A stretch of DNA of 64,000 bases from Bacteroidales bacterium (lineage in GTDB: Bacteria; Bacteroidota; Bacteroidia; Bacteroidales; WRLA01), in NCBI GenBank assembly GCA_965230045.1, contig OZ245940.1:1999403-2063402 (forward strand), written 5' to 3'. Within the stretch, counting starts at the first letter, position 1. Each line of letters opens with the position of its first letter. The position numbers were made by a program, and so were the translations under genes. Shown piece by piece: positions 1 to 51,372 of this stretch. The notes beneath the pieces are model-generated. The model saw only the letters and a program-made list of their open reading frames with translations, was not told where the DNA came from and ran no database searches.

Positions 1-135
1 AGCTTACTAAAGTAAGTGACTGGTTTCAATACCAAGAATAACGCTGAGATCGGACATTATGGACAAGCACTATTTAGTGTCTGTCTATAAAGTCGGGTTT
101 CTGATTCAGAATGTTCGAGGTCGAGGCATTTCTTT
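1..135. mobile_element. Two abutting fragments of MITE family A (subtype A1): the right part of one copy (1..70, cut by the window edge), a TATTTA junction (71..76), and the left ~57 bp of a second copy (77..~135)
   Basis: 1..70 matches the right half of the complete copies at 29554..29696 and 46931..47073 (cttactaaagtaag loop, aacgctgagatcggacattatggac terminus). 77.. starts with the family terminus gtgtctgtctataaagtcggg...gaggtcgaggcat and then breaks off. Confidence 0.6.
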
Positions 136-6946: not shown

Positions 6947-7303
6947 TTTGTTAATTTCTTCGATACTTAAGCCGGTGATTTCCTGGATAATATCAATTTC
7001 CATTCCTTTAAGGAGCAGATTCCTTGCTAAGGATAATTTTTCTTCTTTTCTGCCTTCTTCCCTGCCTTTAATTAGTGTTTGTCCATAGAGTCGAGAGTTT
7101 GCTCTATAAAGTTCAAATTCAAGGCGTGTGAAAAATCTAAACCGCAGTATACTAGGGTATATGAGGATTTAGATTTTGAGCAACAACGCAGAAGTTGGAC
7201 TTTATAGACGAACTCTAATTAGCCCCTTTTCTTCTGCCCAGTCAATGGAGTTTTTGATATCGTTGAGGATATCCGGATTGAAATTGTATTTTCTCCCGGT
7301 CAT
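6908..7303 (-). pseudogene. Truncated Rpn-family C-terminal paralogue, split by a MITE
   Basis: Reads MTGRKYNFNPDILNDIKNSIDWAEEKGLI, then the MITE, then KGREEGRKEEKLSLARNLLLKGMEIDIIQEITGLSIEE. This matches the C-terminus of the intact neighbour at 7308..8270. Confidence 0.7.
7075..7215. mobile_element. MITE family A, subtype A3, with a TAATTA target duplication (7069..7074 and 7216..7221)
   Basis: Termini gtgtttgtccatagagtcg ... ggactttatagacgaactc. The same element occurs at 29703..29843. The uninterrupted homologous site is at 7532..7537. Confidence 0.85.
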
Positions 7304-7307
7304 TGTC

Positions 7308-8270
7308 TCAGAGTTCATCCTGTAGTTTGCTGATTTCTTCCAGGCTTAAGCCGGTGATTTCCCGGATAATATCAATTTCCATATCTTTAAGGAACAGATT
7401 CCTTGCTAAGGATAATTTTTCTTCTTTTCTGCCTTCTTCCCTGCCTTCTTCCCTGCCTTCTTTTCTACCTCTAATAATTCCTTTCTTCTCTCCCTCAATC
7501 AGCCCTTCTTGTTTGCCTTCTTCCCTGCCTTTAATTAGCCCCTTTTCTTCTGCCCAGTCAATGGAGTTTTTGATATCGCGATAGGCATTTAGGCTGAACT
7601 GATATTCTTTGTACTCCTTTGAATCCAAACGGGCAATTTCTGCCGTTTCAAAGAATTTAAGGAAAACCTGTTCCCTCAGTTTTTCAGGCACGCGGTCCAA
7701 GCGGTTTAGGTTTTTGATCACATAAAGCCATTTTTCAAATTTGCTTTCCAGCTCCGATAGCTCCTTGCTGAATTTGGGCATAGCGAGATAAATGTAAGTG
7801 AGCTTGTCGTAGAAAATATCCTTGCTGTCCAAATCACAGATCTTCGCATCGAAACGGTATTTGTCCTCCGGGCTCTCGTCGCCCTTAAACACGAAATCCA
7901 AAATACCAATGGTATAAACGTGCTTGAGCTCAAAATTCCAGTCTTTGCCTTTGTCTTTTGCCTGCTCCTGAATCGGGAAAGTAGAATAAAAAACAGTGCG
8001 ATCCTTGAAATACTTCTGTTCTGCCTTTTGCATTTCCACAATGAAACGCTCGCCCTTTTCGTTTTTGCAGTAAATATCAAAAATAGCCCTGCGGTCGCCC
8101 AAGGCAATCGGCAGGTTTTCGTTGGGCAAATACGACAGCTCCACAATGTTGCCTTCCTGCTCGCGCAACAGCTCGTTCAGGAAATCCTGCAATAAATCCT
8201 TGCTGGGCTCCTCGCCAAACAATCGTTTAAAACCGTAATCCGTAAAAGGATTGATGTATTTTTCTTTCAT
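7308..8270 (-). CDS. Rpn-family recombination-promoting nuclease / PD-(D/E)XK putative transposase
   Basis: N-terminus MKEKYINPFTDYGFKRLFGEE...LLQDFLNELL with IFDIYC...FIVEMQ core. C-terminal E/G/K-rich repeat and LSLEEISKL tail. Confidence 0.85.
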   Translation of the reverse strand: MKEKYINPFTDYGFKRLFGEEPSKDLLQDFLNELLREQEGNIVELSYLPNENLPIALGDRRAIFDIYCKNEKGERFIVEMQKAEQKYFKDRTVFYSTFPIQEQAKDKGKDWNFELKHVYTIGILDFVFKGDESPEDKYRFDAKICDLDSKDIFYDKLTYIYLAMPKFSKELSELESKFEKWLYVIKNLNRLDRVPEKLREQVFLKFFETAEIARLDSKEYKEYQFSLNAYRDIKNSIDWAEEKGLIKGREEGKQEGLIEGEKKGIIRGRKEGREEGREEGRKEEKLSLARNLFLKDMEIDIIREITGLSLEEISKLQDEL

Positions 8271-8593: not shown

Positions 8594-8873
8594 ATGGATA
8601 TACTCTCTTGTCAAGCTTACCGGAGGACATTTGTCTCCATTATTGGCAAAACAATAAAAGGAGCAAAATCCATGGTAAAAAAAATCCTTATTCACTCATT
8701 AAACGCCTGGGCAGCTGAAAGTGGTCTGGTTTTAGGGCATGTCAAAACGGATGGAAGTCAAATAAGATTACTGCAACTCCAAAATGCTGAATTTACTGAT
8801 GCTGAAAAACGAAAAACCTTGAAATCAGGAGATAAAGGTAAAGTGCCAGAGGCTGGTTTTATGAAAGTACTTA
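8594..8873 (+). pseudogene. ISAs1-family transposase remnant (central fragment only)
   Basis: SIIGKTIKGAKS...ILIHSLNAWAAESGLVLGHVKTDG resembles the ISAs1 segment AIDGKTLRGS...HLVSA...GLVLGQ.KV. The expected KSNEITAIP follows only in another frame (KSNKITATP). The DDE domain is missing and the ORF runs into a MITE. Confidence 0.45.
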
Positions 8874-9015
8874 GTTTCCGTCTATAAAGTCCGCTAACTT
8901 CGTTACGCTTGCCCGAAAAATGCTCATTTACACCAGTAAACTCTGCTTTTTCGGGCTGCGCAAGCCTCGTTATCGAACTTTCTAGCTCAGAAACACGACA
9001 TTATAGACAGACACT
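8874..9015. mobile_element. MITE family A, subtype A2 (inverted), with TSD TACTTA (8868..8873 and 9016..9021)
   Basis: Reverse complement of the copies at 29407..29547 and 51103..51243. A perfect 6-bp duplication flanks it. Confidence 0.85.
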
Positions 9016-9107
9016 ACTTAATTAATGATGCGTTGCCTTATTAAAATTGTTCCACCGTTTTGGTAATTCGGTTTTATCCTTTTACCTTTACAAACAAACG
9101 AACTCTT

Positions 9108-21589: not shown

Positions 21590-21785
21590 CTCGTGAATAA
21601 ATAGATTTCTCCTCCCGCTGGTCGTCGAAATGACTGTTTACTAATTGTTTGGGCAAAGGCGGCTTACGGTCACTGAGCGTCCTGTGGTGAGCGTAGCCGA
21701 ACCAAGTCGAAGTGCGCCGCCTTTGCCACTTGAACACAACAAAAGGTCATTTCGATGCCGAAGTTTCGGCAGAGAAATCTATGTT
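21590..21785. repeat. Core hairpin repeat (the same core as inside MITE family B) nested in the IS
   Basis: Concentric inverted repeats tagatttctc/gagaaatcta, tcgaaatgac/gtcatttcga and ggcaaaggcggc/gccgcctttgcc surround the module ggtcactgagcgtcctgtggtgagcgtagccgaaccaagtcgaagtgcgcc. Confidence 0.75.
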
Positions 21786-25515: not shown

Positions 25516-25719
25516 GCCTGTATATCATTGTTTCGTGCAAAAGTATCATAGGCTTGATAAGCGAACTTAAAGCCTCTGTAACTTTTACTTTATCAATTTC
25601 AGGGCGATGGAGTCTTATGTTTCTTTTTTTTTAAGCATCTCATTACTCAAAAGAATCATCAGCATTCCTTATACTTTTGTGTACATTATAAAATCTTTAT
25701 ATTCAGGTTTTTAATATTT

Positions 25720-26071
25720 GGTTATACTAGGAATTTCGTGGGTCACAATAATGTTTGAAAATAATATGCAGATATTTATTATTGAACATTGGATTCCTAA
25801 CAGATTCCTTCCTACACAAAGCCTTAATCACTTCGTTTGGCTTTGTTACGGTCGGAATGATGCTGTTTATTAGGTGTTTAAGGCAAATGCGGTCTGGTCA
25901 CTGAGCGTCCTGTGGTGAGCGTAGCCGAACCAAGTCGAAGTGCGCCGCATTTGCCTCCTGACTTCATAAAACCGTGTCATTCCAACAAAGTTTCCGAAGT
26001 ATGAGGAAACTTTGGAGGAATCTGTTTGGGATAGCATTCAAGTTTCTTTCCACGAAATTCCGTTTAGAACC
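25720..26071. mobile_element. MITE family B copy 1 (352 bp) with an 8-bp TSD TAATATTT
   Basis: TIR ggttatactaggaatttcgtggg / ccacgaaattccgtttagaacc. TSD at 25712..25719 and 26072..26079. Confidence 0.85.
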
Positions 26072-28701: not shown

Positions 28702-29367
28702 GTGCATATGATCAGTATTCAACAAGCTGTAGATCGTTTGATTTCCTCGCGCCCGTTTATGGAAGAAGCATTGTATGAGGGATTGTTAAACCTTTCATCA
28801 GTGGCACGCAGGCTGCAATCTGAACTCGAAGAATTGCTTGGGAAAAGGGTGCAAACAGGGGCAATTGTTATGGCATTGCGCCGGCATGTGCCCGGGAAAT
28901 TGCATCAGTTGCGCAGCAAAAACCGGAAGAGTGTAAACCGCATTAATAAAATGACTGTGCGCGCCGGGATTTGCTCCTATACTTATCATAATTTTCCTGG
29001 ATTGATGAGGCATTTGCAAATACTAACCCACGCATTTCAGGAGAAAGATGCAGAGTTTTTTACTTTCTCAATGGGTGTTTTTGAAACTTCGGTTTTTGTG
29101 CACGAAAGCGCCGCCAAATTCGTGCAGGAAGTTTTTCACGACAAGGAATGTGTGGCCAGTTATAAAAACCTTTCCTGCATTACCCTTAATCTTCCCGATG
29201 ATAATGCGGAATCTCCCGGATATTATTATTCTATTTTAAAGCGCATTGCCTGGGAAGGCATCAACATCCGTGAAGTTCTTTCCACCACAAATGAATTTTC
29301 CCTTATGCTCGATGAAAAAGATGTGGATCAGGTTTTTGCTGTTTTAAATAAACCGGTGGTTTTGTGA
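28702..29367 (+). CDS. Hypothetical protein with an ACT-like C-terminal domain
   Basis: C-terminus ILKRIAWEGINIREVLSTTNEFSLMLDEKDVDQVFAVL resembles ACT-domain segments. Divergent from lysC. Confidence 0.5.
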   Translation: MHMISIQQAVDRLISSRPFMEEALYEGLLNLSSVARRLQSELEELLGKRVQTGAIVMALRRHVPGKLHQLRSKNRKSVNRINKMTVRAGICSYTYHNFPGLMRHLQILTHAFQEKDAEFFTFSMGVFETSVFVHESAAKFVQEVFHDKECVASYKNLSCITLNLPDDNAESPGYYYSILKRIAWEGINIREVLSTTNEFSLMLDEKDVDQVFAVLNKPVVL

Positions 29368-29406
29368 TCGGATATTTCCTTAATCAGACAGGGCCTCTCC
29401 TAATTA

Positions 29407-29843
29407 GTGTTTGTCTATAATGTCGTGTTTCTGAGCTAGAAAGTTCGATAACGAGGCTTGCGCAGCCCGAAAAAGCAGAGTTTACTGGTGTAAATGAGCA
29501 TTTTTCGGGCAAGCGTAACGAAGTTAGCGGACTTTATAGACGGAAACTAATTAGTGTCTGTCTATAAAGGCGGGTTTCTGATTCAGAATGTTCGAGGTCG
29601 AGGCATTTCATTTGCTGGAAACGAGGAGTTTACTGGAGTAAATGACTGTTTCCAGCAAATGAAATAACGCTGAGATCGGACATTATGGACAGAAACTAAT
29701 TAGTGTTTGTCTATAATGTCGGGAGTTTGCTCTATAAAGTTCAAATTCAAGGCGTGTGAAAAATCCAAACCGGATAATACTCAAGTATTTGAGGATTTGG
29801 ATTTTGAGCAACAACGCAGAAGTTGGACTTTATAGACGAACTC
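29407..29843. mobile_element. Tandem array of three different MITE family A members (A2 29407..29547, A1 29554..29696, A3 29703..29843), each junction being exactly TAATTA
   Basis: TAATTA at 29401..29406, 29548..29553, 29697..29702 and 29844..29849. Each unit has termini GTGTyTGTCTATAA... / ...TTATrGACnGAAAC-like. Confidence 0.9.
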
Positions 29844-29898
29844 TAATTACAACGGAAAATTGTAATCAGGAGAGTTGTGCATTTTCGTGGCAGGCCAT

Positions 29899-30642
29899 TT
29901 ATCTAAAAAATTCAGTAAAACCGTATAATTTTTCGACATAGATCACGGAATTGGGTTTAATGCAAAATTCGCTTAATCCAACTCTGGAAGTGAAGTCAGC
30001 CCAATCATAAGTGTACCCCATTCTTGTCCACGGCATAGGAGAAGTACCATAATATGAATAAATCAAATTTGAGTCAAACCAGGCTTTGTATGCTGAATCA
30101 GCATTCGGTGCTAAATTTTGATATGCTGTTTTGTCATCAATTTCATTGTCTCCTGCAGGACGGAAAAGGTCAGAGCTTTTGATCCACAGCACAGCAATAT
30201 GGGTGTATTCCTTTTGAGGAGGAAGCCCAAGGAGCTGTTTGAACCGCATGGTGGTATCCTTTGAACTTCCATCGGGATTGAATGAAAAACGCTGGTGTGC
30301 TTGCTGCGGAATAAAAACCCAAACATCGCCCCACCAATTTGAGAGGCTGTCAACTTTGTAGCTGTCGGGAAATGCGGTTAAGTTTGCCACTTGCAGGTAG
30401 TTTTCTCCGTCTATTTCTTTCCATTTTAGATGAGGATTTGAACTGCTAATGGCCCATAAACTGTCAATAACGTAGCTGCTGTCGGCTGTCATGGCGTTAT
30501 AGACTGAATTTTGGTATAAAGTTTCTAAATCTACTGTAACAGGTTTGGGTTCAATAGCTTCCTCGTCTTTTTGACAGGACACAAGGACCATAATACAAAT
30601 CAAGCATAACAGCTGAAGTAATTGTTTCTTTTTCATGATCAT
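29899..30642 (-). CDS. Hypothetical lipoprotein
   Basis: Signal peptide ending LVSC (lipobox-like). No other motif recognised. Confidence 0.7.
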   Translation of the reverse strand: MIMKKKQLLQLLCLICIMVLVSCQKDEEAIEPKPVTVDLETLYQNSVYNAMTADSSYVIDSLWAISSSNPHLKWKEIDGENYLQVANLTAFPDSYKVDSLSNWWGDVWVFIPQQAHQRFSFNPDGSSKDTTMRFKQLLGLPPQKEYTHIAVLWIKSSDLFRPAGDNEIDDKTAYQNLAPNADSAYKAWFDSNLIYSYYGTSPMPWTRMGYTYDWADFTSRVGLSEFCIKPNSVIYVEKLYGFTEFFR

Positions 30643-36990: not shown

Positions 36991-37081
36991 TAAAAAGCGC
37001 TTCTTAAGAGGAAATGTGACCAGGCATGAGGTATTCCGATAGCCTACGGAAGGAGGGATCTGTTGGGGATTTAACTTTTGT

Positions 37082-37451
37082 GGTTCTACTAGGAATTTCG
37101 TGGGTAACAATAATGTTTGAAAATAATATGGAGATATCTATTAATAAACTATTGATCCCTAACAGATTCCTCCCTTCACAAAGCCTTAATCACTTCGTTT
37201 GGCTTTGTTCCGGTCGGAATGACGCTGTTTATTACTTGTTTAAGGCAAATGCGGCGAGGACATCTTTAAAATATACTATTGTGTCCTCGCCGCATTTGCC
37301 TCCTGACTCCATAAAAACGCGTCATTCCGACAAAGTTTTCCGAAGAATGAGGAAACTTTGGAGGAATCTGTTTGAAATAGCATTCTAATTTCTTTCCACG
37401 AAATTCCGTGTAGAACCACATTTGTCTTTCCACGAAATTTCGTGTAGAACC
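37082..37451. mobile_element. MITE family B copy 2 (37082..37417) plus an extra solo right TIR (37426..37451)
   Basis: TIR ggttctactaggaatttcgtggg / ccacgaaattccgtgtagaacc. Flanks ACTTTTGT / ACATTTGT (7 of 8 positions match). The inner loop differs from copies 1 and 3. Confidence 0.8.
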
Positions 37452-40994: not shown

Positions 40995-41363
40995 GGTTCT
41001 ACTAGGAATTTCGTGGGTTACAATAATGGTTGAAAAAAAATATGCAGATATTTATTAATGACCTATGGTATCCCTAACAGATTCCTCCCTCCCGATAGCT
41101 ATCGGGACAAAGCTTTAATCATTTCGTTTAGCTTTGTTCCGGTCGGAATGACGCTGTTTATTAGGTGTTTAAGGCAAATGCGGCCTGGTCACTGAGCGTC
41201 CTGTGGTGAGCGTAGCCGAACCAAGTCGAAGTGCGCCGCATTTGCCTCCTGACTTCATAAAAACGCGTCATTCCGACAAAGTTTTCCGAAGTATGAGGAA
41301 ACTTTGGAGGAATCTGTTTGGAATAGCATTCAAGTTTCTTTCCACGAAATACAGTGTAGAACC
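40995..41363. mobile_element. MITE family B copy 3 (369 bp)
   Basis: TIR ggttctactaggaatttcgtggg / ccacgaaatacagtgtagaacc. Flanks TTCTAAAT / TCTAATAT. Same inner module as copy 1. Confidence 0.8.
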
Positions 41364-41478
41364 TCTAATATTAAGGAGTAATTATTGTTATTCAAAATAA
41401 AATTATCGTTTAACAATAAATATTTCTTGCTTTTTGATAATTCTTGCCTTATCTTTGCTGCATTAAAAATCAATTGCT

Positions 41479-42108
41479 ATGAAAACACAAAATCAATCTT
41501 TCAGTATCAAATTAATTTTTTGGGGCACCCAAATTACGTTTTGGCTCTTTTGTGCCTCCATGCTCGTAGGCGTTTTTCTGTCTGTTGGCTTTATTTATGG
41601 TTTCATCCGGCCGGATAACCTGGCTGTAGGTGTTCCGGTTGGACTGGACCTTGCGCAAAACGGCCTGCTGCAAATTGATGGCCACGATATAGCCGTGCGT
41701 TTTGTTGAGATGCAGGGCAGAATCCGTTTTAGCGACGGAACACCACAGTTTATTGGGCGCATTTACGGTGTATTTATGCTGCTGGCCATTGCATTGTTTT
41801 TCTACGTCTTTTACACCTTTAAAAACTTCATCGGCACAATTTATAAAGGCGATTATTTCAATAAAAGAAATATCGGCCTTCTTAAAAGGATTGCCTATGC
41901 TGTTGCTCTTGGCTGGTTGTTTATGCTGTTTTATGCCTATTTTCAGTATTTCTACATTGTGCAGCGCCTCGATTATCCGGTACTCGACAGTGCCGCAGAC
42001 TTGCAATTTTATCCTGCTGTTTTGCTTGCAGCCCTTTTTATTTGGGTGCTCTCGCATGTCTTTGTAAAAGGCGTCGAATTACAGGAAAATAACGATTTAA
42101 CTATTTAG
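41479..42108 (+). CDS. DUF2975-type membrane protein
   Basis: Four-TM profile and the usual pairing with a downstream YozG-like HTH gene. Confidence 0.65.
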   Translation: MKTQNQSFSIKLIFWGTQITFWLFCASMLVGVFLSVGFIYGFIRPDNLAVGVPVGLDLAQNGLLQIDGHDIAVRFVEMQGRIRFSDGTPQFIGRIYGVFMLLAIALFFYVFYTFKNFIGTIYKGDYFNKRNIGLLKRIAYAVALGWLFMLFYAYFQYFYIVQRLDYPVLDSAADLQFYPAVLLAALFIWVLSHVFVKGVELQENNDLTI

Positions 42109-42250
42109 TGCTTGTCCATAATGTCCGATCTCAGCGTTATTTCTTTTGCTGGAAACAGTCATTTACGCCAGTAAACTCCTCGTTTCCAGCAAAAGAAATG
42201 CCTCGACCTCGAACATTCTGAATCAAGCACAGTACTTTATAGACAGAAAC
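42108..42250. mobile_element. MITE family A, subtype A1 (inverted), with TSD TATTTA (42102..42107 and 42251..42256)
   Basis: Termini gtgcttgtccataatgtccgatc ... ctttatagacagaaac. A perfect 6-bp duplication flanks it. Confidence 0.85.
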
Positions 42251-42259
42251 TATTTAATT

Positions 42260-42749: not shown

Positions 42750-42875
42750 GCTACCGCGCGTGTCCCAGCTACCGCGCGTGTCCTCCCCAGCTACCGCGCG
42801 TGTCCTCACGCGTGGTACTGCTTAAATATCAACCACAATAACATCTTCGGGTATCGATTTTTTTCTGCATAATCC
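42750..42875. repeat. REP-like hairpin units plus an 89-bp direct repeat (42787..42875), copy 1
   Basis: agctaccgcgcgtgtcc occurs three times, closed by cacgcgtggtactg. It is followed by a short remnant of a RayT-like gene 3' end. The partner copy is at 50555..50643. Confidence 0.75.
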
Positions 42876-43236
42876 CTGATATTCCGTGATACCTCATATG
42901 ATTCATAGCACCCATCGGATAACGCTACTCATCGGATGACTCCAAGTCATCCGATGAGTAGGTCTAATTTGCCTCAATAAGTATATTTACAGAATATCTG
43001 CCCGAAGCAAGCCCGCAGCAGCCGGCTGCCCGCAAAGTATTTACAGGGACTTGGTATAGCGATGGTATAGCGAAAACCCCTGTGGGGACAATGCGGGTTT
43101 TGCGGGGAATTACCGAAAAAATCGGTAAAAATTTGCCTTACAAAATTGCCATAATCCCGCATGCTTTTACTAATTGCTAAGGTCTTCCTGGGTTTACTTC
43201 AAGTATTTAGATTGATGATTACAGGCGTAGAAATTA

Positions 43237-43320
43237 TTTTTGATGCGCATCAAAAACTTTTTTTACGCGCATAAAAACCATTTTTCATGCGCATGAAAAT
43301 CAATTTTGATGCGCATGCAA
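43237..43320. promoter_or_regulatory. Four phased 18-bp palindromes TTTTnATGCGCATnAAAA (centres ~43245.5, 43268.5, 43290.5, 43312.5)
   Basis: ttttgatgcgcatcaaaa and ttttcatgcgcatgaaaa are perfect dyads and the other two have one mismatch each. Spacing is 23/22/22 bp. The array lies ~230 bp upstream of the integrase gene. Confidence 0.6.
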
Positions 43321-43548
43321 ATTTCAAGGCAACAAGAGCTGTTGAAAGAAAGATGCTTTTGTGTGTTCAGATAAGACACGGCTACTTGGTGAGCGGATCA
43401 GGTTTTTTGCCAAATACAGGCGGGCTTGTTTGGTTTATGCCATTAATATGATTGCCCTCCGAAAAACGCGGGTAATCCCAAAAAAAAACATAGAACCATA
43501 CGTACCAATCAATATTTTCCATATATTTGATGTTTGAAACAAAAATAA

Positions 43549-46576: not shown

Positions 46577-46930
46577 AAGTTTGTGTAAGACTTTATGGAA
46601 CTTTTACTTAACTCAAATGTACAAAGTTGAAGATGTAAAAACAACGACATGCCAACAATTAAGCAACGTTTTCCGGCCATAGCCGGAATATCCCGTTAGG
46701 CGGGACAAGTAGTGCTTTGTGTTGAACAGCCTGTCCCGAGCCATTCGGGAAAACCGGTGTACCTATATATTGGGGAATCAATTTTTGCGGTATTTTCTGC
46801 CAAATACCTTAAGGGAAGGGAAAGCAGGCCATTTTCAGCCGAAAAGCTTTGGTTTGCAATAATTCAAATGAACGTTTTGTCAAGATATGATGCCTGCCAC
46901 AGTCCATTTTGTGGGGCTTAGGCATAATTA

Positions 46931-47073
46931 GAGTTCGTCTATAAAGTCGTGTTTTTAGTTCAGAATGTTCGAGGTCGAGGCATTCTCGGTATTGAAAATA
47001 AGGAGCTTACTAAAGTAAGTGACTGGTTTCAATACCGAGAATAACGCTGAGATCGGATATTATGGACAAAAAC
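46931..47073. mobile_element. MITE family A, subtype A1
   Basis: gagttcgtctataaagtcg...gaggtcgaggcat...cttactaaagtaag...gatcggatattatggacaaaaac. Left flank TAATTA, right flank degenerate (TAACCA). Confidence 0.8.
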
Positions 47074-47133
47074 TAACCATATCAGTCCTGCATTGCAGGG
47101 GCAGAAGGAAAACAATAAAGCATGTGCATTTTC

Positions 47134-50481: not shown

Positions 50482-50519
50482 GCGCCCTGGCTGTGCGCAG
50501 CGCGAAGTCTGGACGTCCC

Positions 50520-50643
50520 CCAGCTACCGCGCGTGTCCCCACGCGTGGTACTGCCCAGCTACCGCGCGTGTCCCCACGCGTGGTACTGCTTAAATGTCAA
50601 CCAAAATAACATCTTCGGGTATCCCTTTCTTTCTGCATAATCC
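50520..50643. repeat. Two full REP-like hairpin units plus the 89-bp direct repeat (50555..50643), copy 2
   Basis: cagctaccgcgcgtgtccccacgcgtggtactg occurs twice. The stem is taccgcgcgtg/cacgcgtggta with one G-T pair. Confidence 0.75.
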
Positions 50644-50815: not shown

Positions 50816-50953
50816 TAAGCATTCCTAATTGCACATGGAGTTGAACTTAAAAAAAACGCACAATTAGGAATTAGGGCAAGCTTGATGCTGCGCCAGTAGG
50901 AGAGGCAGTTCATCCCTCGCTTCTTTATGGAATGTTGCCTGGGCCGATAATTA

Positions 50954-51243
50954 GTTTCTGTCCATAATGTCCGATCTCAGTGTTATTCTTGTTCTGCAAC
51001 CAAGTCATTTACTAAGGTAAACTCCTTGTTTTCAGCCCTGCGAATGCCTCGACCTCGAACATTCTGAATCAGAAACCCGACTTTATAGACGAACTCTAAT
51101 TAGTGTTTGTCCACAGAGTCGGGTTTCTGAGCTAGAAAGTCCGATAACGAGGCTTGTGCAGCCCGAAAAAGCGGAGTTTACTGGGGTAAATGAGCATTTT
51201 TCGGGCAAGCGTAACGAAGTTAGCGGACTTTATAGACGGAAAC
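50954..51243. mobile_element. Tandem pair of MITE family A members (A1 inverted 50954..51096; A2 51103..51243) joined by TAATTA
   Basis: TAATTA at 50948..50953, 51097..51102 and 51244..51249. Confidence 0.88.
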
Positions 51244-51372
51244 TAATTATGGGCTTTCAATACCTGCAACCCAAAGCCTTAAGTCCTTTTAACTTATCCC
51301 AAAGTTATTCACAGAAGCACTTTGCAATCCAATTTTATTAATTTTGCAGAGTGAACATGCTAAAAGCACTGA

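What the first reader, a model, noticed from the sequence alone, without database searches (positions are those of the whole stretch)
29401..29849. MITE family A builds head-to-tail arrays of different subtypes sharing single TAATTA junctions
Three sequence-distinct members (A2, A1, A3) sit in tandem, with exactly one TAATTA at every junction. The same arrangement occurs at 50948..51249 (A1 inverted + A2) and at 1..135. This is what repeated insertion into the TAATTA left by a previous copy would produce, so the elements create their own preferred target. All subtypes share the termini and a palindromic hairpin tip (tttacNNNgtaaa / cttactaaagtaag) but differ in their arms.
Basis: partly seen in the sequence, partly recalled or inferred. 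Interest (0 to 1): 0.6.

Follow-up and report, generated by a model that had tools for sequence, protein, structure and literature searches.

The report
Self-stacking MITE arrays in Bacteroidales
Small non-coding transposons in this uncultured Bacteroidales genome pile up end to end because each insertion copies its 6-base target (TANNTA) onto both of its sides, and later insertions reuse that copy; sister genomes show the same site empty, holding one unit and holding two.

Summary
At 29401-29849, three 141-143-nt units (64-72% alike) are separated and flanked by exactly one TAATTA.

The units are MITEs. They carry terminal inverted repeats, real target-site duplications and no ORF, in about 170 copies and fragments in three main subfamilies. 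Their ends match a 1647-bp IS present in two intact copies, whose 444-aa DDE transposase is ISNCY-type (NCBIfam NF033593).

Relatives and a paralogue hold one hexamer at the empty sites. Genome-wide there are 43 end-to-end junctions: 39 have one hexamer, 2 a heptamer and 2 a reduced CTAG.

Within an array every hexamer is the same, but it differs between arrays (TAGTTA, TAAGTA, TAAATA and others). This rules out block copying. One orthologous locus shows 0, 1 and 2 units in different sister genomes, and two more show 0 or 1 against 2.

- Arrays occur in all orientations, not only head to tail.
- Neighbours are almost never of the same subfamily.
- Left-end to left-end junctions outnumber right-end to right-end ones 16 to 2.
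- The hairpin tip is not shared by all subtypes.

Abutted ends with the same 2-nt spacing occur in 9 of 121 genomes sampled across the order. This is a new variant of a known kind, of moderate interest.

The parts
29401..29406 (.). TAATTA, left copy of the target-site duplication of the array
   Evidence: G001 has a single TAATTA at the orthologous empty site.
29407..29547 (+). MITE unit, subfamily A2 (141 nt, G...C)
   Evidence: 16 near-full copies in the genome. It has terminal inverted repeats and folds as a long hairpin, z -5 to -6.
29548..29553 (.). TAATTA junction between A2 and A1
   Evidence: genome 2028951/2028953.
29554..29696 (+). MITE unit, subfamily A1 (143 nt)
   Evidence: 56 near-full copies. 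Hairpin z -8 to -10.
29697..29702 (.). TAATTA junction between A1 and A3
   Evidence: genome 2029100/2029102.
29703..29843 (+). MITE unit, subfamily A3 (141 nt)
   Evidence: 39 near-full copies. Hairpin z about -6.
29844..29849 (.). TAATTA, right copy of the target-site duplication
50948..51249 (.). Two-unit array: TAATTA, A1 (inverted) 50954-51096, TAATTA, A2 51103-51243, TAATTA
   Evidence: The site is empty in G001 and approximately so in G002 (the flanks are 5 nt apart in the hit table, not aligned); in G003 only the right flank was found.
1..135 (.). End of an A1-type unit (1-70), TATTTA junction (71-76), and an A1 unit truncated after about 62 nt (77-135)
   Evidence: genome 1999474/1999476.
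7069..7221 (+). Single A3 unit flanked by TAATTA on both sides. The paralogous empty site with one TAATTA is at 7532-7537.
8868..9020 (-). Single A2 unit flanked by TACTTA on both sides
42102..42256 (-). Single A1 unit flanked by TATTTA on both sides; the site is empty in G001, G002 and G003
46925..47079 (+). Single A1-type unit, with TAATTA on the left and a degenerate TAACCA on the right

Best explanation
[quoted passage not shown] The enzyme inserts into TANNTA (rarely TANNNTA) and duplicates it, most likely as a 6-bp duplication. Every new copy is therefore bracketed by two intact copies of a target that has already proved usable, in a place where an insertion is tolerated. A later element, usually of another subfamily, inserts into one of these flanking hexamers and duplicates it again. 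This gives hexamer-unit-hexamer-unit-hexamer with one identical hexamer at every junction.

Shown: the MITE nature of the units, the target and its duplication, the empty sites, the identity of hexamers within arrays and their diversity between arrays, and stepwise growth between sister genomes.

Inferred: that this transposase is the one responsible; and that same-subfamily neighbours are missing because direct homodimers collapse by recombination and inverted homodimers are unstable long palindromes.
For: MITE nature:
- There are about 170 copies and fragments in 127 blocks with no ORF. Complete units are mostly 141-145 nt measured G to C (145-149 nt from TAG to CTA), with some longer variants carrying internal inserts.
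- 44 elements have identical non-palindromic hexamers on both sides, which makes these true direct duplications.

Partner element:
- Two intact IS copies lie at genome 1036742-1038389 and 3469401-3471048. They are 96% identical to each other.
- The IS ends read TAGTGTCTGTCTAT..., and its right end matches the MITE end for about 19 nt.
- Their flanks are TAATTA/TAATTA and TAAGTA/TAAGTA.
- The transposase scores 351 bits against NF033593 (cut-off 325) and matches Pfam DDE_Tnp_1.

Empty sites hold one hexamer, both in sister genomes and in a paralogue at 7532-7537.

Junctions: 39 of 43 carry exactly one hexamer. Hexamers are identical within arrays and differ between arrays.

Stepwise series: locus 3805341 has 0, 1 and 2 units in different sister genomes. 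Locus 4644393 does too. At locus 1735640 two different units entered the same element-end hexamer GAAATA in different lineages.

Enrichment: 25% of insertions are at element ends, against 1.1% of all TANNTA sites and 4.4% of non-ORF TANNTA sites.

Generality: IS relatives at 55-66% amino-acid identity in other Bacteroidota keep the TAG(A/T)GTCTGTC ends and TANNTA flanks, and some abut another element end. Abutted ends with 2-nt spacing occur in 9 of 121 genomes sampled across the order, one per genus.
Against: - No transposition assay was done, so the link between transposase and MITEs rests on shared ends and shared target.
- The duplication length (6 bp or 2 bp) is not fully settled. GAAATA duplicated in three events favours 6 bp. 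One element, with GAATTA on the left and TAATTC on the right, fits 2 bp better.
- A few arrays have one deviating hexamer (loci 120315, 417516, 4644393).
- A target-preference matrix combined with restriction to non-coding space already predicts 15-29% end insertions. The excess therefore needs no special mechanism. But that model does not explain why left-end to left-end junctions outnumber right-end to right-end ones 16 to 2.
- Orthologous copies in sister genomes sometimes differ in the hairpin tip. Some 'shared' units could therefore be independent insertions.
Confidence: 0.85

Rival explanations
1. Active end-targeting. The transposase bound to a resident terminal repeat captures the incoming element and inserts it at a fixed distance from that end, as IS30 and IS911 do. 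Arrays would then reflect recognition of the repeat, not only of the regenerated hexamer.
For: Left-end to left-end junctions number 16, mixed junctions 19 and right-end to right-end junctions 2 (p 0.001 for 16 against 2). This fits 'one kind of resident end is targeted about 8:1, with random incoming orientation'. The flanking-base preference of virgin targets does not predict it. The spacing of abutted ends (2 nt between CTA and TAG) is formally like IS30 IR-IR junctions. The same locus was hit twice independently. One of the two IS copies (3469401-3471048) directly abuts a MITE end.
Against: Sequence preference plus tolerance of non-coding sites already predicts the share of end insertions. 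The junctions are stable over species-level divergence, unlike the reactive IS30 junctions. Orientation is not exclusive. The transposase is not of the IS30 or IS3 families. In the four cases where the resident unit is known, the targeted end was the left end twice and the right end twice.
Confidence: 0.3
2. The arrays are one longer composite repeat that was copied as a block.
For: A1+A3 pairs recur at several loci. Locus 120315 reads TAAGTA-unit-TAATTA-unit-TAAGTA, as if a dimer had moved using its outer ends.
Against: Composition and orientation vary between arrays. The internal hexamer matches the local outer duplication in 16 of 25 complete arrays, including many non-palindromic hexamers. 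Sister genomes show 0, 1 and 2 units at the same site. The single candidate differs from the simple model by one base.
Confidence: 0.03
3. The units are REP/BIME-type palindromic elements spread by a RAYT (Y1, IS200/IS605-like) transposase, or arrays made by tandem duplication and unequal recombination.
For: The units are long imperfect hairpins. BIMEs are also mosaics of different palindromic units.
Against: True target-site duplications with one-hexamer empty sites are not made by Y1 transposases. The 20-nt terminal inverted repeats match a DDE-type IS. Neighbouring units are only 64-72% identical, so they are not tandem duplicates of each other.
Confidence: 0.02

Closest known systems
Bacterial MITEs derived from a resident IS (for example the IS982-derived MITECca01 of Cardinium, PMC9769881, or the Correia elements of Neisseria, from my own knowledge)
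   Same: Short, non-coding and high in copy number. The terminal inverted repeats are shared with an autonomous IS in the same genome. They make target-site duplications, sit between genes and fold as hairpins.
   Different: The partner here is an ISNCY-type IS. The target is a specific 6-mer, TANNTA. A quarter of insertions abut another copy, which builds mixed arrays. Three co-existing subfamilies share only the ends.
IS30 IR-targeting and (IS30)2 junctions (PMC9333248)
   Same: An element is inserted next to the inverted repeat of a resident copy. The abutted ends are separated by 2 nt if the element is counted as TAG...CTA. Both have two kinds of target: a palindromic hot spot and element ends.
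   Different: The transposase family differs (no IS30 match). IS30 gives only IRL-IRR junctions, which are highly reactive and unstable. Here all orientations occur and the junctions persist across species. The spacer here equals the local target duplication.
Nested and multimeric MITEs of plants (Jiang and Wessler 2001, Plant Cell; cited from memory, not read here)
   Same: MITEs insert preferentially into or next to other MITEs because their short AT-rich target recurs in the elements.
   Different: Those are eukaryotic Tourist and Stowaway elements with 2-3-bp targets, mostly nested inside one another. Here the insertions are precisely end to end at the duplicated hexamer, in a bacterium.
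BIMEs (mosaic arrays of REP units) of enterobacteria and pseudomonads
   Same: Intergenic arrays of different palindromic unit types in varying orientation.
   Different: REPs are 20-40 nt, have no target duplication and are linked to Y1 RAYT transposases. These units are about 141-143 nt with inverted-repeat ends and duplications.
ISNCY family, possibly the ISDol1 group (ISfinder lists 1.6-1.9 kb and 6-7-bp direct repeats for it; from memory)
   Same: IS length 1647 bp, a single 444-aa DDE transposase, and 6-bp (rarely 7-bp) duplications.
   Different: Homology to ISDol1 itself was not tested. The TANNTA specificity and the array habit are not, to my knowledge, described for that group.

Membership tests
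MITE | Short (under about 300 bp) with no coding capacity | tested here: met
   Units are 141-143 nt. The only ORF of 60 aa or more that touches the array is a spurious 61-aa frame.
MITE | Terminal inverted repeats | tested here: met
   Consensus (TA)GTKTYTGTCYATARWGKC at both ends of about 120 paired elements.
MITE | Target-site duplication, with empty sites holding one copy | tested here: met
   44 elements have identical non-palindromic hexamers on both sides. Empty sites were found in G001-G003 and in a paralogue.
MITE | Multiple copies in the genome | tested here: met
   111 near-full and 56 partial copies.
MITE | An autonomous element with the same ends in the genome or its relatives | tested here: met
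   Two intact 1647-bp IS copies share about 19 nt of terminal sequence and the same TANNTA duplication.
MITE | Mobilisation by that transposase | not testable with these tools
   This needs a transposition assay.
ISNCY-type IS (NCBIfam NF033593) | The transposase scores above the curated cut-off of the model | tested here: met
   351.5 bits against a cut-off of 325, over residues 15-437 of 444.
ISNCY-type IS (NCBIfam NF033593) | DDE catalytic domain | tested here: met
   Pfam PF01609 DDE_Tnp_1, E 1e-12. The catalytic residues were not mapped individually.
IS30-type IR-targeting | IS30-family transposase | tested here: not met
   There is no IS30 model among the NCBIfam hits. The best hits are ISNCY, IS5 and IS1182.
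IS30-type IR-targeting | Exclusively IRL-IRR junctions | tested here: not met
   16 left-left, 19 mixed and 2 right-right junctions.
IS30-type IR-targeting | Abutted ends separated by 2 bp | tested here: met
   39 of 43 junctions have 2 nt between CTA and TAG. Under a 6-bp duplication this is simply one hexamer.
REP/BIME | No target duplication; Y1 (RAYT) mobilisation; 20-40-nt units | tested here: not met
   Duplications are present, units are about 141-143 nt, and the ends match a DDE-type IS.

The most novel reading that the evidence does not exclude
The ISNCY-type transposase recognises a resident terminal repeat as part of its target, preferring one of the two ends by about 8 to 1, and places the incoming element exactly one hexamer away. 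This would be an IR-targeting mode evolved independently of IS30 and IS911. It would yield stable mixed MITE arrays across many Bacteroidales families. Host recombination and palindrome surveillance would then remove same-subfamily neighbours, which in turn would favour the co-existence of several diverged subfamilies.
Probability: 0.25. Interest if true: 0.7.

Novelty: new variant of a known kind. Interest (0 to 1): 0.5.

Why it matters
It gives a simple, documented route from single transposon insertions to complex intergenic repeat arrays in bacteria. A specific palindrome-like target, once duplicated, becomes a self-renewing landing pad. Intermediate stages are preserved in sister species.

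It defines the target (TANNTA) and the ends of a poorly characterised ISNCY-type IS group that is widespread in Bacteroidota.

It raises two testable questions. Why are same-subfamily neighbours missing: recombinational collapse, palindrome instability, or an unknown interference? Why is one end favoured?

Practically, such arrays mimic other repeat classes and break short-read assemblies of Bacteroidales genomes. An annotated model of them therefore helps annotation.

Tried and rejected
No small-RNA or population-read test was possible, and read laying was not used.
- The first attempt at chaining elements into arrays lost most arrays because of my de-duplication rule. It was replaced by BLAST-defined blocks.
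- The first target matrix was contaminated by flanks that were themselves element ends and gave absurd shares of 52-79%. It was redone with clean targets and few positions.
- A 12-nt core motif with 2 mismatches was half noise and was replaced by 17-20-nt motifs.
- Apparent 23-24-nt gaps between ends turned out to be the inner degenerate repeat of the same junctions.
- Rfam gave only sub-threshold miRNA noise.
- Literature searches found no description of this family or of end-to-end bacterial MITE arrays. The Cardinium MITE is IS982-derived and unrelated. The digIS paper did not give ISDol1 features.
- I ran no further search on naming the IS subgroup.
- The choice between a 2-bp and a 6-bp duplication cannot be made at TANNTA targets, because both models give identical sequence. 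Only the rare non-TA targets discriminate.

Full report
**1. The observation**

The window is C1:1999403-2063402 of a 5.14-Mb, 42% GC, single-contig genome. Its closest relatives are titled 'MAG: Bacteroidales bacterium'.

At 29401-29849 the sequence reads:

TAATTA | A2 29407-29547 | TAATTA | A1 29554-29696 | TAATTA | A3 29703-29843 | TAATTA

The three units are 141-143 nt long and only 64-72% identical to one another. The array lies between the 3' ends of two convergent ORFs, 28702-29367 (+) and 29899-30642 (-).

The second array, at 50948-51249, is an inverted A1 plus an A2 with three TAATTA hexamers. The stretch 1-135 is the tail of an A1-type unit, a TATTTA junction, and a unit truncated after about 62 nt.

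**2. What the units are**

A motif scan and BLAST with the three units find 111 near-full and 56 partial copies in 127 blocks: A1 56, A3 39 and A2 16 near-full copies. Most complete units measure 145, 147 or 149 nt from TAG to CTA, which is 141-145 nt from G to C. Longer variants of 172-204 nt carry inserted GC-rich modules.

Both ends carry the repeat (TA)GTKTYTGTCYATARWGKC.

Of 125 paired elements, 71 have the same hexamer on both sides. In 44 of those the hexamer is not a palindrome (TATTTA, TAGTTA, TACTTA, TAAGTA, TAAATA, TACATA, TATCTA, TAGATA, TAACTA). These are therefore direct duplications and not part of the inverted repeat.

Each unit folds as a long imperfect hairpin, with z from -5 to -10 as DNA or RNA on either strand. 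In the minimum-free-energy DNA folds of all three units, and in the RNA folds of A1 and A3, the first ~22 nt (the left terminal repeat) take no part in the main hairpin, and an inner degenerate copy of the repeat pairs with the right end. The A2 RNA fold pairs the two termini instead. Rfam has nothing for the region.

**3. The partner**

Two pairs of ends 1647 bp apart enclose an intact 444-aa ORF, at genome 1036742-1038389 and 3469401-3471048 (0-based). The two copies are 96% identical.

- The protein scores 351 bits on NCBIfam NF033593 'ISNCY family transposase' (cut-off 325). It has weaker IS5 and IS1182 hits and matches Pfam DDE_Tnp_1.
- The IS ends read TAGTGTCTGTCTAT.... The right end matches the MITE end for about 19 nt.
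- The two copies are flanked by TAATTA/TAATTA and TAAGTA/TAAGTA.
- The second copy directly abuts an A3 unit through a shared TAAGTA.

Relatives of this transposase at 55-66% identity occur in many Bacteroidota MAGs. They keep the TAG(A/T)GTCTGTC ends and TANNTA flanks, and several abut another element end in the same way.

**4. Empty sites**

- G001 reads ...CTCC TAATTA CAACG... where G000 has the three-unit array.
- The single unit at 42102 is absent from G001, G002 and G003. The dimer at 50948 is absent from G001 and approximately so from G002 (5-nt gap, not aligned); only the right flank was found in G003.
- Inside the window, the A3 unit at 7069-7221 has a paralogous empty site with one TAATTA at 7532-7537.

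**5. Arrays genome-wide**

There are 43 junctions where one element end meets another. The distance between ...CTA and TAG... is 2 nt in 39 of them, which is one hexamer. It is 3 nt in 2 (TACCATA, TAAAATA). In the other 2 the ends overlap as CTAG. Apart from one pair 24 nt apart, all other neighbours are more than 100 nt apart.

In 16 of 25 arrays with both outer ends intact, every hexamer is identical, whether outer or internal. Yet the hexamer differs between arrays. Block copying would instead keep the internal hexamer constant and vary the outer ones. Only locus 120315 (TAAGTA-unit-TAATTA-unit-TAAGTA) looks like that, and it differs from the simple model by a single base.

**6. Stepwise growth seen directly**

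I searched the four sister genomes with the joined flanks of 15 arrays, fetched the loci and aligned them.

| Locus (G000 coordinate) | Empty | One unit | Two units |
|---|---|---|---|
| 3805341 | G002, G003 (CAAG TAATTA GGTTC) | G001 (one A1) | G000 (the same A1 plus an A3 in its right-hand TAATTA) |
| 4644393 | G001, G002 | G003 (one A3) | G000 (A1 added at the A3's left hexamer) |
| 1735640 | none | G003 (one A1) | G000 and G001 (A3 + A1); G002 (A1 variant + A1) |
| 417516 | G001, G002 | none | G000, G003 |
| 4603001 | G003 | none | G000, G001, G002 |

At 1735640 the same element-end hexamer, GAAATA, was therefore used twice independently. By the hit coordinates, several more arrays sit at sites that are empty in the relatives: four have flanks about 90-94% identical (263698, 1351491, 1440799 and, at 80%, 457414), and two have flanks 99-100% identical (2203329 and 4589254). 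The last two are therefore very recent.

**7. Is the excess at element ends special?**

- 43 of about 170 insertions (25%) are at element ends.
- Element-end hexamers make up 1.1% of the 15,574 TANNTA sites in the genome. They make up 4.4% of the 3,787 TANNTA sites outside crude ORFs. The excess is 24-fold and 5.8-fold respectively.
- A small preference matrix built from 35 clean virgin targets, covering the central NN and 1-4 flanking bases, raises the expected share to 15-29% when only non-coding sites count.

The passive model is that a copy of a good target in a tolerated place is reused. It is sufficient to first order.

**8.

- Same-subfamily neighbours are 2 of 37, against about 40% expected (p 4e-6). 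My inference is that direct homodimers collapse by recombination and inverted homodimers are long perfect palindromes. At locus 1735640, G002 has an A1-A1 direct dimer, and the single unit in G003 looks like its recombinant. That fits the inference but does not prove it.
- Junctions join two reference-left ends 16 times, a left and a right end 19 times, and two right ends only 2 times (p 0.001). The target matrix does not predict this. It fits a model in which one kind of resident end is favoured about 8 to 1 and the incoming orientation is random. This keeps an IS30-like end-recognition component alive, at odds of roughly 0.3. IS30, by contrast, gives only IRL-IRR junctions and those junctions are unstable.

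**9. Duplication length**

At TANNTA targets, a 6-bp duplication (element G...C) and a 2-bp duplication (element TAG...CTA) give identical sequence. Rare non-TA targets discriminate.

- GAAATA is found intact on both sides of the incoming unit in two independent events at locus 1735640. The same holds at 2891604. These favour 6 bp.
- One element has GAATTA on the left and TAATTC on the right, which favours 2 bp.

I favour 6 bp, occasionally 7 bp, at about 0.75. From memory, ISfinder lists 6-7-bp repeats for the ISDol1 group of ISNCY. I did not test membership of that subgroup.

**10. Generality**

I scanned one genome per genus across the order (121 genomes, this one included) for abutted ends, allowing 0-10 nt between them. 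Nine genomes in nine families, G000 among them, have such junctions. All but two matches have exactly 2 nt. The reversed-pattern control gave 0-1 hit per genome.

**11. Verdict**

The finding is a MITE family of an ISNCY-type IS whose duplicated, specific target makes insertions stack.

To my knowledge, and after five literature searches, end-to-end mixed MITE arrays built this way have not been described in bacteria. The principle is close to known things: target reuse, nested plant MITEs and IS30 IR-targeting. I therefore rate it a new variant of a known kind, with interest 0.5.

Noticed in passing
Genome loci 3805341, 4603001 and 417516 in G000 against G001-G003 (loci L041, L050, L053, L054): Copies at orthologous sites in sister genomes have identical arms but different hairpin tips, for example CATCCCGTACAGACGGGACTCC against CATTTACTAAGGTAAACTCC. 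The tips (TTTAC..GTAAA, ATAC..GTAT, CCCGTA..TACGGG) behave like swappable cassettes. This could be short-patch gene conversion among copies, or independent insertions of variants at the same site.
   Followed up: partly
Genome 2626601-2628252, 2430180-2431874 and 4823286-4824882 (outside the window): An IS3-like element (about 1.45 kb, ORFs of 133 and 318 aa, ends TGTAGCGTCCTGAT, 5 copies at over 99% identity) sits inside A-family MITEs at 3 of its 5 loci, at different internal positions. It may prefer these hairpins as targets.
   Followed up: partly
Genome-wide; for example genome 1171386, 10604 and 1310639: Longer MITE variants (167-204 nt) carry an inserted 25-55-nt GC-rich module (GCTGAGCGTAGCCGAAGT...). 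It resembles the core of another repeat family in the window (D10, 21668-21744, 25896-25972, 41187-41263). Some copies carry the perfect palindrome TCCCGAAGCTTCGGGA in place of an arm segment.
   Followed up: no
window 25719-26071, 37081-37417, 41010-41363: A second, unrelated MITE-like family of about 350 nt is present in three copies (families D1, D5 and D7 of the repeat scan). Earlier notes from this scan describe 8-bp duplications for it.
   Followed up: no
window 42763-42875 and 50518-50643; 43231-43321: REP-like GC-rich hairpins (CCCCAGCTACCGCGCGTGTCC...) recur 7.8 kb apart. A phased array of 22-nt TGCGCA palindromes lies at 43231-43321.
   Followed up: no
Genome 2228937 and 1366382: At two junctions the hexamer is reduced to CTAG (units overlapping on TA). 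A 4-bp deletion between the two TA dinucleotides of the hexamer would give this.
   Followed up: partly
Genome, 7 loci (for example 4984972-4985940 and 41231-42199): A second IS5/IS1182-like transposase, 26% identical to the ISNCY-type one, is present in 7 near-identical copies. Its relation to any MITE family was not examined.
   Followed up: no
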